Positions 3,543 to 31,724 of a DNA stretch of 64,000 bases are shown here, one piece after another. Both the position numbers and the translations under genes were made by a program. This DNA comes from Eledone cirrhosa (taxonomy: Eukaryota). A model generated the notes under the pieces. That model searched no databases. It was not told where the DNA came from and worked only from the letters and a program-made list of their open reading frames with translations. Numbering within the stretch: the first letter of the stretch is position 1; each line of letters begins with the position of its first letter. The stretch lies in contig OZ024742.1 in NCBI GenBank assembly GCA_964016885.1, positions 357,430,001 through 357,494,000 on the forward strand, in the 5' to 3' direction.

Positions 3543-3623
<81 letters not shown>

Positions 3624-3628
<5 letters not shown>

Positions 3629-3932
3629 ATATGCCCCTATCCCATCCCACTGCAAAGTGGTTGTGGAGGTGCCATGGCAAAAATGCACCCAGCCCACACT
3701 GTAAAGTGGACGTGTAAGTGCCACGGAAAAAAAGCACCCACCACTCACTGTAAATGAAGTCGGTGTTAAGAAGGGCATCTAGCTGTAGCAATCAAGCCAC
3801 AATCATTTTCCGTATGAGCAAGACAAGGACACCCGACCTAACATTGCCCACAACAGGACAACCTGTTTAACCCATGCTAGCGTGGAAGAATCAATGTAAA
3901 ACGGTGATGATGATGATGATGATGATGATGAT
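3624..3932 (+). mobile_element. RTE LINE 3' UTR fragment with (GAT)n tail
   Basis: Matches the 3' UTR of the LINE at 29458-31076 (cccacactgtaaagtgg, gaagggcatc, acccatgctagcgtggaagaa, GAT tail). Confidence 0.88.
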
Positions 3933-4113
3933 ATATATCATTCGGGTTCCTAAATAGAATATTAACGAACCAAAGTATCATCTTCCTGTTTTCTTTCGGT
4001 TGCATCATTTTTCGAAATATTTACTTCTGCGTACACGGATTGATTTTTTTTAGTTTCAGAAGATCCCGCTAAGGGTGAAAGCAGCGATTTTTTGCTTAAA
4101 CTTTAATCTGTTA

Positions 4114-4196
<83 letters not shown>

Positions 4197-4255
4197 TTAT
4201 TTATTTATTTGTTTATATATTATAAGTATGGCCGTGGTGTAAAATTTTCATGAGG

Positions 4256-4354
4256 TTTATTCAGATGTGATGCGCGTTTCACAACTGATCAGCTCAGGGT
4301 TCAATATTTATCGATGGGGCCCCACTCTGGTATCAAAAGTTCATCAGACTTTTG
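4256..4354 (-). ncRNA. Degenerate type I hammerhead motif followed by AATAAA
   Basis: Minus strand: CAAAAGT-CTGATGA-ACttTTGAT...ATCAGttGT-GAAAC-GCGC-ATC-ACATCTG-AATAAA; ATC is plausibly decayed GTC. Confidence 0.6.
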
Positions 4355-5325
4355 TTAGCTTAATGAAAGTAATTGACTCTATATAGAAAAAGGGAAAGGT
4401 AATAATCTGACCATGATGTCTATTGGTTTTGGCTTGTATTCAGAAAGTTTTTTCCAAGGGTGTATTGAAGAAATCTTCTGAAAATTATGTGGGAAGTGGT
4501 TTTGTGGAATGTATTTAATTAGGTCACTTGCTGGGCTGGTCAGACACTAATGGTGGCTTATGGTCAGAGATGTCATTGTAAACAGCTGGCAAGGGGATAT
4601 TGCACTGGGATAATAGAAAGGATTGGGGAAGGGCATGGGTGGTAGAGAATGGTTAGTTTGTCTATAGAGGCTAGAAGTTAGGGTAAAGAAATAATCTGGC
4701 TGAGGGTAGAAAAGGGAAAATTATAAAAAGAGAAGAGAAATGATAGATGGATGAATAAAAATTCATTATACCCCAGTAGACTCCTGAAAAAGCTTACTGA
4801 ACACAAGCCAAATCTGTTAGGTGATGCAATTGGGATTTTACCTTCTTCCATAATATATCTACATCTTCCCAAATATAGAGTACTCCTCTGATTTTTGGTC
4901 TCCACAGTCTCATCATCGCAGATTTTCCATAGATATATATGGTAGAAAAGAGGGGCAGAGGCGACTTGCAGAATTTGTTCCTATAGCTATGACTTCCTAT
5001 TTTTGCCAGCCACTGGAAGTGACATGAGACAGGGACCCAGACTTCCACCTCAGCATTAGGGATCATACAGTGTTTGGCACACCTAGAACCAACAGTGCAT
5101 CCTGCCACTCCCTCATATCATAAACATTTTAAAAGTAATTTGAAATTGTTTGTTTAAATATTTGTATACCATTTGGAGAGCTCAGGCTAATGGAGTGGGT
5201 AGGAAGAGCACTACCTAGCCATCGACCCCAATGAAATATCATGGATATGAAAATAAACTTACATACAACTACATATGGCCTATGATATATTCAAAGTTCT
5301 CTCTCTCTCTTTATATATATATATG

Positions 5326-6385
5326 AAAAATGAAAGGCAGGTTATACGATGCCTGCATACGAACAGCAATGCTGCATGGCAGTGAGACCTGGGCATTGTG
5401 TGCAGAGGATATACGCAGACTAGAGAGGAACGAAACTTGCATGCTCCACTGGATGTGCAATAGTGATATACGTGAACGGCAAAGCATAAACGAACTAAGG
5501 AAAAAATTAGAAATAAGAAGGATCAGATGTTGTTTACTCGAGAGAAGGCTACGTTGGTACGGTCACGTGATGCGCATGAAAGACGACAGCTGTATAACAA
5601 AGTGCAGGGCAATAAAGATAGACGGTAGCCACGGAGTAGGCAGACCCAGAAAAATATGGGACGAGCTGATAAATTCCGACCTCACACGCTTACACCTCTC
5701 CAAGACAATGTCACTGGACCGAGACCTTTGGCGGTACTCAGTAATAGAGAAGACCCGCCTTACCTAAATACAAAGTCAAAACCTACTACAGTCAGTAGGC
5801 ATCTCTATCAACCCCCCCCCCCGTCCCACCACCTCCACCCCATCCACACCGCCCCTTTCAATGTAAAGTTATGTTGGTCCCACAACATCCAGGCCGAAAC
5901 AAATGAGATCGTGTAGGTGTCACGATAAAAAAACACACAGTCCACGCTGTAAATGTGGCCGTGTAGGCAACACGGTAAAAACCTTCCAGCCCCACACTGT
6001 AAATGTGGTTGGTGTTAGGAAGGGCATCCAGCTGTAGAAAACCCGCCAGACAGTCCACGCTGTAATGTGGCCGTGTAGGCAACACGGTAAAAACCTCCCA
6101 GCCCCACACTGTAAATGTGGTTGGTGTTAGGTAGGGCATCCAACTGTAGAAAACCCGCCAGACAGTCCACGCTGTAATGTGGCCGTGTAGGCAACACGGT
6201 AAAAACCTCCCAGCCCCACACTGTAAATGTGGTTGGTGTTAGGAAGGGCATCCAACTGTAGAAAACCCGCCAGACAGTCCTATGCAAGCAAGACAACCAC
6301 TCTTGCCTCAAGTGGGAAAACCCCCGTCCAAACCCATGCAAGCGTGGAACACGGACGCTAAACCTGATGATGATGATGATGATGA
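5326..6385 (+). mobile_element. 5'-truncated RTE LINE: ORF2 C-terminus plus 3' UTR with triplicated ~112-bp block
   Basis: ORF 5330..5767 (LHGSETW, LRWYGHV); cagtcc block starts at 5938, 6051, 6163, 6275; (GAT)n tail. Confidence 0.92.
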
Positions 6386-6456
6386 TATATGTGTTAGGTA
6401 ATTCAGAAGGAAAAGCAAAGGAAAAAAGAGTGCTCTATGTGAAGAAGAGAGCTATT

Positions 6457-6742
6457 TAATTAGAAAGTGAACAAAACAAAATATAACTACTCCATTACCA
6501 AAGGTTTCTGGATGCCAGACAATAATAATATATGTCTGGATCGGTCGTCAGACAGATATGTGAGGGATAAAAAATATGAAATGAGATTTAAAATGTGTTA
6601 AAAATTGGAAGTGAAGCTGGAAAAATAACAAGAAATATATTTCCCGTTATTTTTCCAGTCTTGATCCAGACGTATATTATTATTGTCTGGGATCCAGAAA
6701 CCTTTGGTAATGGAGTAGTTATATTTTGTTTTGTTCACTTTC

Positions 6743-6748
<6 letters not shown>
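6457..6748. repeat. ~86-bp inverted repeat (6457-6542 / 6663-6748), PLE-like
   Basis: Arms are reverse complements with about 2 differences; right arm ends in (TA)n. Confidence 0.9.
6491..6556 (-). ncRNA. Type I hammerhead ribozyme motif
   Basis: Minus strand: TCTGT-CTGACGA-ccGAT-CCAGAC...GTCTGG-cATCca-GAAAC-CTTTG-GTA-ATGGA; stem I with G.U pairs, stem III ACC/GGT, GUA site; base of stem II imperfect. Confidence 0.62.
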
Positions 6749-6795
<47 letters not shown>

Positions 6796-7110
6796 ATTAG
6801 AATACTGGAGCGTGTTGGAGTCAAACACCCTCTTCGTATTATAGAAATGACAGTAAAAGGTATAGCTCAATGCAGTTAAACAGAGCCAAAAAATTTCTTA
6901 AATGCACGCGAGGCCTAAGTGTGTATATATTTGCTTTTGCTTTTGTTTTTTAATTTCCGGTTGATTGTATTTATTTATTTTATTCTATATTCTATTTGCT
7001 ATTCACTGTCTGACTTTGCTTACTCATCCACATATGTCTGTCTACTAACCTTGTAATTATAAGTATTTATATATTTTATGCCAATTTATAATATATTATA
7101 TTATATTGTA

Positions 7111-7289
7111 TTGTAATATTGATCCTTATTACTTACTGTTCATTATATGTAACATTATGATATTTAAACTTTATATATCATGTAAGATGTCTGGATTTTT
7201 GTAATATTGTAATATTGATCCTTATTACTTACTGTTCATTATATGTAACATTATGATATTTAGACTTTACATATCATGTAAGATGTCTG
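7111..7289. repeat. Direct tandem duplication, period 96 bp
   Basis: ttgtaatattgatccttattacttactg...gtaagatgtctg at 7111 and 7207. Confidence 0.9.
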
Positions 7290-8084
7290 TATATTTTTTT
7301 CTGTAACATCATAATTTTTCCCTGTACCATTATAGTGTTTTTTTTTAGTATTATATAATTTATTTTTCCTCATTTATTCTGTAACCCAGTATGAATCGAT
7401 TTGTATATATTGTTTATGGTAAATGTTAGTACACTGTTAACGTATTATCATTGTATTTTATTGTGACATCTATATTGTTTCTGTAAATTAACCGGGGATT
7501 ATCTATTTTATTTTATTATATTATATTGAATTATATAATTTTGTTGTTTATTATTTGTTATATGTGTTTCTTGTAATTATATCATATTATTGCCTCATGT
7601 ATATTGGGTAGATGTATTAGTATTATTTTCACTCTTATCATGCTTATTTTTATATTCAAACTTCTAATAGGGCTTAATTTTGTGTAGCGGAACATAGATG
7701 TGTGTGTTGTTATATATGTGTGTGTGTGTGTGTGGGTGCGCACATATATACATGTATATATTGTACCTTTTGATTTTTAATTTGTAATTTTAATGTTGGT
7801 AAAAGTATATTATTATTATAATGTATTATATTGTGTTATATATAATTCCTGCTCTATATAACCAAATTTGTTTAGATTTAGGTTAGTTGCTTTGGACTAT
7901 ATTTGTAATATGGTTCTTAATGTTATCTACATCCTTAGTTATTCTTATTATATATTTTTATTATTTTTATTTTTATTTTCATTTTTATTATCATATATAT
8001 TTTTGTAAGACATTAGTGTATGTACACTCCATATTCTTCAGAGTTTCCGGCTTGTATCTGCCGATATTACCTCTTGTTGTTTTG

Positions 8085-8132
8085 ATTGCTCTGATGAGTC
8101 CTTAATAGGACGAAACATTGTCGGCTAATAAA
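8085..8132 (+). ncRNA. Minimal type I hammerhead ribozyme with canonical core
   Basis: CTGATGA 8091-8097; stem II GTCCT-TAAT-AGGAC 8098-8111; GAAAC 8112-8116; ATT; GTC 8120-8122; stem I attGCT/GGCtaat; AATAAA 8127-8132. Confidence 0.88.
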
Positions 8133-8170
8133 AACTTTTGATGTATTAAAGGATTCTTTGTTTTACTCTC

Positions 8171-8207
<37 letters not shown>

Positions 8208-8344
8208 ATACATTGGGAGGGTCATGTTGCCAATAAGAAACACACGCACCAGTTGCTTTCACTTCAATTTATTATAATAAATTTATAAATTTATAAATTT
8301 CTGGTTGGTTGGTTGGTTCCACAACCAGATAGTTGTTTATATAT

Positions 8345-8389
8345 AGTCATAGTTCTTTCGTCACACACTCTGTGACCTCTTCAGTGACT
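8345..8389 (-). ncRNA. Hammerhead motif (left arm)
   Basis: Reverse complement of 8790-8834. Confidence 0.68.
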
Positions 8390-8789
8390 GGGGATTCCTT
8401 TCTTTGTTTCTGTGCCTCTCCTTTGTTCTGTCCTACGCCATTTTGTTTCTGTGTGTGTGTGTTGTATGCTCAGTCTGCGCATGCGCCATATCCGGGTGTC
8501 TGTGTGTGTTTATGTTCATTTATTTATTTGTTTATTTACATGTTACTGGTTGGTTGTTTGTTCTGTGTGTGTGTGTTTTCATTTTGTCCTTAATTGTAAG
8601 TTGTGATGTTGCTGTTCCACTCATATTTTCTATTTAATTTTGGTTGTAATTCTTTTTTTTTTTTTCTTTTTTTTTGTTTATTGCCTCTGTAATTTGTCTA
8701 AACATTGCGTCTTTTCTGTGTGTAGATTCTATTTTTATTTCTATGTTCTCTAATTTACTCTTGTGTTCTAAACAAAGAAAGGAATCCCC

Positions 8790-8834
8790 AGTCACTGAAG
8801 AGGTCACAGAGTGTGTGACGAAAGAACTATGACT
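8790..8834 (+). ncRNA. Hammerhead motif (right arm)
   Basis: AGTCA-CTGAAGA-g-GTCACA-GAGTG-TGTGAC-GAAA-GAA-CTA-TGACT: 5-bp stem I, 6-bp stem II, one extra G, minimal stem III, CUA site. Confidence 0.68.
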
Positions 8835-9041
8835 ATATATATACAACTATCTGGTTGTGGAACCAACCAACCAACCAGAAATTTATAAATTTATAAATTA
8901 TTATAAATTTATTATAATAAATTGAAGTGAAAGCAATTGGTGCGTGTGTTTCTTATTGGCAACATGACCCTCCGAAAGTATAACAATATCGGTTTCAACA
9001 CACGATTTCAGATAAAGAATCTTGCTAAACAAATTCAGAAA

Positions 9042-29260: not shown

Positions 29261-31724
29261 CAGTGGCGGACTGGGTCTAAAAATATATAAAGAGACCCAC
29301 CAATATATAGAATGCTATCATTTAATTTTTATAATCAATAATAACATTTTCAAAAAATACATAAGTGAAAACAAAACAGTTCAATCAAAATTTTGCAGAA
29401 AGAAATGTGTATTTATTAATATTTATAGTGTATACAAACTGTACATATTTTTGGCAGTCATCATCATCATCATCATCACCGTTTTACGTCCGTTCTTCCA
29501 CGCTAGCATGGGTTAGACGGGTTGTCCTGTTGTGGGCAGTGTCTGGTCAGCTGACCATGCCTTTCTCATACAGGAACTGATCTGGCTTGATTTCTACAGC
29601 TGGATGCCCTTCCTAACACCAACCTCATTTACAGTGAGTGCTGGGTGATTTTTTGTGGCGCCTACACGTCCACTTTACAGTGTGGGCTGGGTGCTTTTTT
29701 GCCGTGGCACCTCCACGACCACCTTGCGGTGGGCGGTGTGGGGGCATATTGTCTATATGCTTCAGCTTATACCCATTGGAGGTCGGGTACTCTGTATTAC
29801 TGCGTGACGCCAGAAGTCACGGTCATGTGTCATTGCCTTTGAGAGGTGTAATTGGGTAAGGTCGGCTTTTATCACCTTATCCCAGGTCATCTTGGGTCTC
29901 CCCACTCCGCGGTTTCCATCAACTTCTAGTGCTCTGCACCTTTTTATGCAGCTGTCATCCTTCATACGCATCACGTGTCCATACCAGCGCAACCGCCTCT
30001 CCTGCACACAGCATTTGATTCCTCTTATGCTCAGTCTCTCTTTCAATTCATTTATGCTTTGTCGTTCACGTATATTACTGTTACACATCCATCGGAGCAT
30101 GCAGGCTTCGTTTCTCTCTAATCTACGTAAGTCTTCCACCTTCAGCGCCCAGGTCTCACTACCATGCAACATTGCTGTTCGGATACACGCATCATACAGT
30201 CTGCCTTTCATTCTGAGGGAGAAGCCTTTTGCAGCTAGCAGTGGTAGTAGTTCCTAAACTTCTTCCATCCCGTGGTTATTGTACTTTCTGAACACCCACC
30301 TCCGCTGCTAATTCGGTCACCTAGGTAGCAGAAGCTGTCTACTGTTTCTACAGAACCCTCCCAGAGATTGGTGGTACTTGTTTCCTGTGGCTGTTTGCTG
30401 CTTGCTGTCTCAGCACAGCTGCTGCATGTGAAGCCTACATTCTTAATTAAGCTTCCTGAGATCCCGCTACATCTCTTGTGTACCCATTGTTTGCATTTGG
30501 GGCAGAGAATGGAGTTCCTACCAACACCTTTCCTACATACTGAGCAAGGCCATTTCCCTGAGGGGATCTGGGTTCTGTTTTCTCGTCTACTTACAAGGAC
30601 CTTAGTCTTTGTCATGTTGACTTTGAAACCCTTTCTTTCTAGTCCCTGCTTCCAAGTTTGGAATTTATTCTCTAGTTCTACCATAGATTCAGCTATGAGT
30701 GCGAGGTCATCAGCATACAGGAGTTCCCATGGGCATCCGGTCTTAAACTCCTCCGTTATTGCCTGCAGGACTATGATGAACAGGAGGGGGCTAAGAACAG
30801 AGCCTTGGTGGACCCCAACCTGTACGCTAAATTCCTTGCTATACTCATTGCTAATCCTAACTTTGCTGACTGCTCCCCTATACATGGCTTGTACCGCTTT
30901 CATAAGCCATTCATCTACTCCTAGTTTTCTAAGAGCCCACCAGATTACAGCACGTGGAACTCTGTCAAAGGCTTTCTCAAGGTCGACAAATGCCAGGTAG
31001 AGTGGCTTACTTTTAGCTAGGTACTTTTCCTGTAACTGCCTCACAAGGAAGAGGGCATCAGTGGTGCCTCTTCCTGTATCCAGTAATATTAAATGTTAAT
31101 ACAGAATGTTATAATTGAATTTTTTTAATAATTGTGAATGTATAGTATATTGTTATTTAGTATACTATATGCAAGTGATCGTTGTTACCTTCTCCAATAA
31201 AAAAAATATAAAGTACCTTGAAAATATACACATCCAGAGACTCTCAATAATTTATCTGGAAGTGTGTGCATGTGTGTACATGTACATGTGTATATATAGA
31301 TTTATATACATGTTTTCAACTTGTACAAACATATTTGCTGACTCATTCTCACTGGGGACTTTAGACTGAAGAACTGACCAATAATTGATTTTAAATATGC
31401 CTTTTACCAATTCATATAAAAAATTATTTGGCGAGCACCTCCTGTGTATGTGTAAGTATATATATATATATATGCATGTGAGTGTGTGTGTCCATGCACT
31501 ATCATATATTTTGGTTTCTATTAATTCCCTAGGGAATTTTTTGACCAAATGCTTTTCTTATTTGTTTATTTATTTTTGAAAATGTTCATTCTTTGTCTAA
31601 GACTTTTTTTTTAAAGATATTTTTTGGCCTTTAAAATACTACAGTGGGCCTCTGCAATGCTACCGTGGCCCCCTGGGGCCCACTTGCCATTTGGGAACCT
31701 GGAAACCTGGCCAGTTTGCCACTG
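29261..31724. mobile_element. Non-autonomous hAT-type element containing a nested LINE
   Basis: TIR CAGTGGCGGACTGG / CCAGTTTGCCACTG (12/14 match); 8-bp TSD ATTATACA / GTTATACA (7/8 match). Confidence 0.72.
29458..31076 (-). mobile_element. 5'-truncated RTE LINE: RT, PHD-like finger, C-terminus, 3' UTR; frameshifted
   Basis: ORF 30235..31044: AFVDLEKAFDRV, GVHQGSVLSPLLF, LLYADDL; continues in 29762..30211 after a 1-bp deletion near 30255; (CAT)n tail. Confidence 0.96.

What the first reader, a model, noticed from the sequence alone, without database searches (positions are those of the whole stretch)
8085..8132. Canonical minimal hammerhead with its cleavage site just before AATAAA
Seen: every core nucleotide is present (CTGATGA, perfect 5-bp stem II GTCCT/AGGAC, GAAAC, GTC). 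Cleavage is predicted after 8122 and AATAAA starts 5 nt later; the 4256-4354 motif is also followed by AATAAA. It caps a ~1.4-kb ORF-less segment bounded by TA runs. Inference: this is the best candidate for a still-active ribozyme; the 2-bp stem III suggests it may need to dimerise.
Basis: partly seen in the sequence, partly recalled or inferred. Interest (0 to 1): 0.75.

Follow-up and report, generated by a model that had tools for sequence, protein, structure and literature searches.

The report
Penelope transposon hammerhead masking AATAAA
This is a hammerhead self-cutting RNA motif at the end of a truncated copy of a Penelope-like jumping gene, one of over a thousand near-identical copies in this animal genome and a known arrangement; the AATAAA beside it is kept across related families and is predicted to fold inside the ribozyme's first stem, where it may act as a masked polyadenylation signal, but neither cutting nor polyadenylation has been tested.

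Summary
The motif is real: type I hammerhead at 8091-8122, AATAAA at 8127-8132. It is not a lone find. The 32-nt core occurs 1,088 times exactly in the genome. It marks the 3' end of a young 4.8-kb Hydra-clade Penelope-like retrotransposon (897-aa telomerase-like RT plus GIY-YIG, (TA)n target). The window copy is 5'-truncated (inverted 101-nt tail plus 1.28 kb of 3' UTR), has no ORF and one hammerhead, and carries a U-G pair where 30 of 30 sampled copies have C-G. It is therefore not the best active candidate. The family looks selected for cleavage: C-G/U-A covariation, cut-site base C, U or A, and a palindromic stem III that favours a dimer. No excess of copies begins or ends at the cut. AATAAA lies in the 3' strand of stem I and is kept, as A[AGT]TAAA, in 1,191 of 1,300 sister-family motifs, but is absent from most other hammerhead families. 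A masked poly(A) signal is plausible, untested; no RNA run was listed. The scan noted a related hexamer-in-hammerhead case in another genome.

The parts
6747..6792 (.). (TA)23 run, left half of the insertion target
6792..6895 (-). Inverted 101-nt 'tail' of the element (sequence that follows the pLTR and leads into the 5' UTR in tandem copies); its outer end is end B, 154 nt after the cut site; joined to the body by a 4-nt overlap AATT at 6892-6895
   Evidence: 98% to L074:3620-3724
6892..8175 (+). 5'-truncated body: last 1,284 nt of the element (3' UTR / pseudo-LTR), no ORF
   Evidence: 1.1% substitutions from the nearest of the long loci compared, L069
7109..7297 (+). 96-bp tandem duplication inside the 3' UTR, shared with most copies
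8079..8090 (+). 5' strand of hammerhead stem I; T8090 (position 2.1) is a rare variant, family has C
8091..8097 (+). Catalytic core CUGAUGA (C3-A9)
8098..8111 (+). Stem II (4-5 bp, G10.1-C11.1) and loop; longer in sister families
   Evidence: (pair probabilities 0.94-1.0)
8112..8121 (+). GAAA core and palindromic stem III ACAUUGU (2 bp as monomer, 3+3 bp as swapped dimer)
8122..8123 (+). Predicted cleavage site, after C17 (GUC)
   Evidence: established hammerhead rule applied to the sequence; not tested
8123..8135 (+). 3' strand of stem I
8127..8132 (+). AATAAA, predicted to be paired in stem I; candidate masked poly(A) signal
8154..8164 (+). U-rich stretch (TTCTTTGTTTT) kept in 8 lineages; position fits a downstream poly(A) element (recalled geometry)
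8170..8175 (+). End A of the element, 53 nt after the cut site
8174..8203 (.). (AT)15 run, right half of the insertion target

Best explanation
The motif is the type I hammerhead in the 3' pseudo-LTR of a 5'-truncated, ORF-less copy of a young Hydra-clade Penelope-like retrotransposon; in full-length tandem copies it likely cuts the element's RNA after GUC as a dimer or with the element's protein, while this particular copy is likely a passenger. Shown: family membership, copy number, tandem layout (hammerhead - 230 nt - ATG - 897 codons - about 1.9 kb UTR - hammerhead), two fixed ends 53 and 154 nt after the cut, one of each in every inverted insertion examined. Inferred: two hammerheads 4.8 kb apart pair through ACAUUGU and release a unit-length RNA; reverse transcription starts internally at the two fixed sites, each primed by one nicked strand of a (TA)n target, on an uncut or re-circularised RNA rather than on a cut linear end. 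Inferred and weakest: the AAUAAA in stem I is a poly(A) signal that the folded ribozyme masks (about 0.4).
For: 1,088 exact cores and 1,293 flank-anchored copies, reversed-pattern controls 0. Uninterrupted ORFs of 913-916 codons in 5 of 20 long loci chosen from the top RT hits; hammerheads in tandem 4,781-5,073 nt apart in 9 of the 20. Model pLDDT 83; the 7 best Foldseek hits are telomerase RTs; C-terminal domain matches Pfam GIY-YIG, E 1.8e-4, 22.2 bits against a cut-off of 22.6. Hydra motifs RWR, DKT, CxCX5C, CxxC..E, CxH present (criteria in PMC8557442 section 11). Pair 2.1:1.1 is C-G in 12, U-A in 6 and U-G in 1 (the window) of 19 rows; covariation score 0.106, reached by 2 of 500 shuffles, a control that ignores relatedness. 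Cut-site base is C, U or A in whole subfamilies; among 146 purine cases 95 of the first 100 listed are A and 5 are G. 43 of 43 inverted insertions have one A end and one B end (one search gave 44 rows; L066 was dropped because its A end belongs to another family). The two pLTRs of one insertion differ by 0.6% against 4% between insertions, n = 9. Hexamer identity across 8 lineages is 96% against 53% for its partner strand (ungapped) and 62-68% for the flanks.
Against: No cleavage or RNA data. ViennaRNA gives the monomer stem III a pair probability of 0.00 and prefers a misfold 5.7 kcal/mol below the active fold; the swapped dimer is also 5.1 kcal/mol above the cofold minimum. RNAalifold recovers only stem II of the hammerhead fold. 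No genomic trace of cutting: 0 of 30 examined copies with a purine before the cut are truncations (30 of 146 examined), 0 of 10 copies reaching the 5' UTR start at the cut, and 1 copy ends at the cut against 2 control matches. In the Anolis PLE, hammerhead mutants did not affect insertion in vitro and no RNA-seq reads ended at the cut (PMC11167929). For the poly(A) part: A(A/T)TAAA lies within 30 nt after the cut in 1 of 13 other motif groups found in my loci (grouped by eye) and within about 25 nt in 2 of 25 published Hydra families (by eye); the ORF itself holds 5 AATAAA; the 3' UTRs are not depleted of AATAAA (2 seen, 2.4 expected in 5 lineages).
Confidence: 0.72

Rival explanations
1. The hammerhead fold is kept as a binding or folding element of the element's ribonucleoprotein, or cuts only rarely; AATAAA is conserved because it pairs in stem I or touches the protein, and has no poly(A) role.
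For: The last three A's pair with a U run in nearly all rows (UA in 19, 17 and 17 of 19); the one variable hexamer base (position 2) is the unpaired one. Most other hammerhead families lack the hexamer. No footprint of cutting in genomic copies. The Anolis PLE hammerhead cut only with protein and was dispensable for insertion (PMC11167929).
Against: T at hexamer position 3 is invariant although unpaired in 6 of 19 rows, and A-to-G changes that would keep a wobble appear just after the hexamer but not inside it; stem II and loop II change in length while the hexamer stays; cut-site base avoids G in subfamilies.
Confidence: 0.35
2. The hexamer is a TATA-like promoter box in the pseudo-LTR: in tandem copies it would start transcription about 30 nt downstream, just before end A, giving an RNA with tail, ORF and only the 3' hammerhead.
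For: PLE promoters lie in the pLTR (PMC6765202, passage; putative TATA boxes in PMC3846280, passages). The spacing to end A (43 nt) and to the ATG (220 nt) would fit.
Against: Sister lineages read ATTAAA and AGTAAA, which fit the tolerated poly(A)-signal variants better than a TATA box (recalled consensus). It leaves the palindromic stem III without a partner in the same RNA.
Confidence: 0.12
3. One reading: this single copy is an active, stand-alone ribozyme that cuts a host or element transcript just before its poly(A) signal, as in mammalian Clec2 genes.
For: Core intact; the copy is young (1.1% from its nearest compared relative); in this copy the hexamer is predicted to be more open than in C2.1 copies (all six bases free 0.15 against 0.006).
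Against: One of about 1,300 near-identical copies; weaker U-G closing pair; no tandem partner, no ORF; nothing ties it to a host gene.
Confidence: 0.07

Closest known systems
Hydra clade of C-terminal EN+ Penelope-like elements, incl. Hydra-1_Obim (Craig et al. 2021, PMC8557442; seen: abstract, section 11, passages, supplement parts 1-2 and searched rows)
   Same: RT then GIY-YIG, RW(K/R), DKT, CxCX5C, CxxC and CxH motifs, (TA)n target, sense-strand type I hammerhead near the 3' end with a palindromic stem III, inverted 5'-truncated copies, tail at one end only.
   Different: Unit 4.8 kb against generally under 3 kb; 3' UTR about 1.9 kb; tail 101 nt against 30-40 bp stated for PLEs; 140-residue low-confidence insert between RT and EN; hammerhead sequence unlike that of Hydra-1_Obim; AATAAA inside stem I, seen in only 2 of 25 listed families by eye.
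PLE hammerheads (Cervera and de la Pena 2014, PMC4209133; seen: parts 1-2 of 4)
   Same: Type I motif in both pLTRs, unstable palindromic helix III, proposed dimeric cleavage, many solo copies from truncated elements.
   Different: This one resembles their 'canonical' metazoan form (4-bp helix II, short helix III with a small palindromic loop) rather than the min-HHR without helix III; stem I is extended and holds the hexamer.
PAc Poseidon element of Anolis (Frangieh et al. 2024, PMC11167929; seen: parts 1-2 of 4)
   Same: Two internal reverse-transcription start sites that define the tail, AT-rich targets, no sign of RNA ends at the hammerhead cut.
   Different: Other clade; there the hammerhead overlaps the ORF start, here it lies 230 nt before the ATG; tail 101 nt.
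Clec2 3'-UTR hammerhead (as described in review PMC6765202; seen: passage)
   Same: Cut site between stop codon and a polyadenylation signal.
   Different: Clec2 is a split ribozyme in a single-copy host gene with activity shown in cells; here a mobile repeat, contiguous motif, hexamer inside stem I, untested.
Non-LTR retrozymes (bioRxiv 10.64898/2026.07.22.740005; seen: part 1 of 5)
   Same: Type I hammerhead related to PLE pLTRs.
   Different: Retrozymes are short non-coding tandem arrays; this copy is a truncated piece of an autonomous, ORF-bearing family and is not in a tandem array.

Membership tests
Type I hammerhead ribozyme | Core CUGANGA, GAAA and NUH in order around three helices | tested here: met
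Type I hammerhead ribozyme | Rfam RF00163 gathering score (34 bits) | tested here: inconclusive
   This copy 27.8 bits; 19 of 74 listed genomic matches pass, and all 19 belong to this family
Type I hammerhead ribozyme | Helices supported by covariation | tested here: met
   Pair 2.1:1.1 C-G/U-A; stems II and III invariant, so uninformative
Type I hammerhead ribozyme | Self-cleavage after H17 | not testable with these tools
   needs in vitro assay or raw RNA reads
Penelope-like element, EN+ | Single ORF with telomerase-like RT | tested here: met
   (in full-length relatives; absent from the window copy)
Penelope-like element, EN+ | C-terminal GIY-YIG endonuclease | tested here: met
   Pfam PF01541 E 1.8e-4, just under cut-off
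Penelope-like element, EN+ | Partial-tandem pLTRs, inverted 5' copies, tail at one end, hammerhead in pLTR | tested here: met
Hydra clade | RWK-like and DKT motifs | tested here: met
   RIRWR at 36, DKT at 129; RWR rather than RWK
Hydra clade | CxCX5C linker; CxxC and CxH around the conserved E and N | tested here: met
   CNCRVSANC 748, CNLCILE 846, CPH 874
Hydra clade | Insertion into (TA)n | tested here: met
Hydra clade | Placement in an RT tree with published Hydra families | not tested
   published proteins compared by eye only
Metazoan polyadenylation signal | A(A/U)UAAA with a downstream U-rich element | tested here: met
   (sequence only; geometry recalled)
Metazoan polyadenylation signal | Poly(A) addition 10-30 nt downstream | not testable with these tools
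Non-LTR retrozyme | Short tandem array with a hammerhead in each unit, no ORF in the family | tested here: not met
   single motif, parent has an ORF

The most novel reading that the evidence does not exclude
In this Hydra-clade lineage the hammerhead is a switch for 3'-end choice: stem I folds over the element's own AAUAAA. Unfolded, the RNA is polyadenylated before the two reverse-transcription start sites and serves as mRNA. Folded, the signal is hidden, the RNA reads through into the tail or is cut and circularised, and becomes the transposition template. This would give the PLE hammerhead a function, which the papers read call unclear.
Probability: 0.25. Interest if true: 0.7.

Novelty: new member of a known kind. 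Interest (0 to 1): 0.32.

Why it matters
Hammerheads in Penelope-like elements are known and their role is an open question (PMC8557442, PMC11167929). This locus alone is ordinary. The family is useful as a test system: thousands of motifs in several lineages, natural variants at the cut site (GUC, GUU, GUA), uninterrupted ORFs, and a strict one-A-end/one-B-end rule that matches the two internal start sites found in vitro for another clade. If the hexamer in stem I is a masked poly(A) signal, it links ribozyme folding to the choice between mRNA and template.

Tried and rejected
RNA evidence: no RNA holder listed; four runs of unrecorded kind, one study, were laid as contigs on L074:2900-6700 and showed no GT..AG joints and loose ends into TA runs at end B, as DNA would; they say nothing on expression or RNA ends. 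Pfam on the whole ORF, and PDB sequence searches with the protein and with a profile, found nothing relevant. The protein atlas gave no result. Truncation at the cut site as a fossil of cleavage: not found. AATAAA depletion upstream of the hexamer: not found. Reading the flanking inverted copies as a DNA transposon with terminal inverted repeats: rejected, the inverted arms vary from a few bases to kilobases and the parent encodes an RT. Naiad membership: rejected, the endonuclease is C-terminal. Selenocysteine read-through at a TGA in L035: rejected, other copies read through without it. A short intron before the ATG (GT...CAG): donor not kept in all lineages, left untested. Literature: searches for hammerhead+AATAAA+Penelope gave 0 papers; hammerhead ribozyme+polyadenylation signal+Penelope gave 1 review whose polyadenylation passage concerns Clec2; searches listed no paper on a poly(A) signal inside a PLE hammerhead (listings only). 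The library lacks most subscription papers, including early Drosophila Penelope work, and bioRxiv supplements are closed, so absence from print is not established.

Full report
Observation. Every element is at the stated place: CTGATGA 8091-8097, stem II GTCCT/AGGAC, GAAAC 8112-8116, GTC 8120-8122, AATAAA 8127-8132. A strict descriptor gives one hit in the window and 0.005 per shuffle. Rfam RF00163 scores 27.8 bits, under the gathering score of 34.

What it belongs to. The genome is 3.0 Gb; the species was not determined (a cephalopod is my untested guess from recalled repeat types). The 216 nt around the motif have 1,701 candidate matches, the best 40 at 97-100% identity. The exact core occurs 1,088 times, a flank-anchored pattern 1,293 times, a wider pattern covering sister families 3,504 times; reversed controls gave 0. 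Of 20 long loci taken from the 40 best RT hits, 5 hold an uninterrupted frame of 913-916 codons and 9 hold two hammerheads 4,781-5,073 nt apart on the coding strand. In L074 the order is cut site, 230 nt, ATG, 897 codons, 1,917 nt, cut site. The predicted structure (pLDDT 83) is closest to telomerase RTs, and the C-terminal domain matches GIY-YIG. The motifs that Craig et al. give for the Hydra clade are present, and the target is (TA)n. 335 proteins match at E <= 1e-20 among 8,000 scored, the best at 34-45% identity, essentially unnamed. This is a new family of a known clade; no tree was built.

The window copy. 6892-8175 is the last 1,284 nt of the unit; 6792-6895 is the inverted 101-nt tail, joined by a 4-nt overlap. 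Copies end at two fixed points, A (53 nt after the cut) and B (154 nt after). Of 44 inverted pairs found in my loci, one was dropped as a mix of two families and all 43 others have one A and one B end. This fits the two internal start sites and two-strand extension shown in vitro for the Anolis element: each target strand is likely primed at one site. The copy has no ORF and a single hammerhead. T8090 is C in 30 of 30 position-sampled copies; the change lowers the probability of the closing pair from 0.84 to 0.38 and costs 2.2 kcal/mol. It is a young passenger, not the best candidate.

Is the family's ribozyme under selection? Likely. Across 19 rows chosen to span lineages, pair 2.1:1.1 switches between C-G and U-A, the core and the first four pairs of stem II are constant, loop II varies in length, and stem III stays ACA-Y-TGT; these rows were found with patterns that fix most of the core, so core constancy is partly built in. 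The cut-site base is C, U or A in whole subfamilies and G only sporadically, as the NUH rule requires (established knowledge). The monomer stem III is not predicted to form, and the swapped dimer is 9.7 kcal/mol below two active monomers though still above a misfold. This agrees with the dimer model and low activity reported for PLE hammerheads.

What the cut does. Genomic copies show no trace of a cut linear template: none of 30 examined candidates is truncated at the cut (only copies with a purine before the cut were sampled), none of 10 copies reaching the 5' UTR starts there, and one copy ends there against two control matches. The two pLTRs of one insertion differ by 0.6% against 4% between insertions, and 5' pLTR length varies from about 390 to 1,370 nt, so both were likely copied from one template in more than one round. 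A circle closed at the cut and an uncut read-through RNA both fit; the data do not separate them.

The hexamer. In sister families selected without reference to it, 1,191 of 1,300 motifs carry A[AGT]TAAA at the same +5 position (about 11 of the 1,300 are chance by the control). The lineage forms are AATAAA, ATTAAA and AGTAAA, which I recall as common poly(A)-signal variants. Across 8 lineages the hexamer is 96% identical, its partner strand 53% and the flanks 62-68%, and a U-rich stretch follows about 22 nt later. In 8 folds the hexamer is less accessible uncut than in the 3' product. An unrelated family, that of 4256-4354, also has AATAAA after its cut in 13 of 19 relatives. Against: the variable base is also the unpaired one; 12 of 13 other motif groups in my loci and 23 of 25 published Hydra families (by eye) lack it; the ORF holds five AATAAA; no depletion upstream. 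I put a poly(A) role at about 0.4, a structural or protein contact at 0.35, a TATA-like role at 0.12. An earlier unreviewed note of this scan reports a similar hexamer in stem II of a Hydra-type hammerhead in another genome; it is a lead, not support.

Verdict. Observation confirmed, interpretation partly supported. A hammerhead in a Penelope-like pLTR is known, and a Hydra element is already listed for an octopus. New here are the family itself, the long tail, the 43-of-43 end rule and the conserved hexamer in stem I. Interest 0.32; 0.7 if the masking switch is real.

Noticed in passing
window 8200-8989: Inverted-repeat insertion next door with hammerheads of another family at 8795-8829 (+) and 8384-8350 (-): 5-bp stem I, 6-bp stem II, cut after CUA, no AATAAA after the cut.
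   Followed up: partly
window 2884-2806 (-): Hammerhead with 8-bp stem II around a long loop and palindromic ACATATGT stem III.
   Followed up: no
window 4347-4256 (-): Decayed hammerhead of an older family (674 candidates, best relatives 83%); long branched stem II, palindromic ACGCGCGT in several relatives, AATAAA 8 nt after the cut, ends about 47 nt after the cut in TA or TAT runs. Parent element not identified.
   Followed up: partly
window 6453-6752: 300-bp element with 90-bp inverted arms (97%), MITE-like, directly left of the TA run.
   Followed up: no
window 5329-5757, 416-816, 29784-30253: Fragments of a LINE-type RT 3' end, similar by eye to the long RT frame in L033.
   Followed up: no
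window 39575-64000: About 24 kb of a 30-bp AT-rich satellite with a few interruptions.
   Followed up: no
L074:3798-6491, residues 489-626: Low-confidence, N/S/R-rich insert between RT thumb and endonuclease, variable between lineages; N-rich inserts are described for rotifer Penelope elements.
   Followed up: partly
L077 (oriented 3613-8547): A unit-length copy that starts at end A directly after a TA run and finishes at end B, so the tail is duplicated in direct orientation.
   Followed up: no
L066/L074, 75 nt before the ATG: GT...TTTTATCTGACAG just after end B looks like a short intron ending at the start codon; the first donor is not kept in two sister lineages.
   Followed up: partly
loci L001-L225: About 13 further hammerhead motif groups turned up in 0.87 Mb of flanking DNA, so this genome is dense in such motifs.
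   Followed up: no
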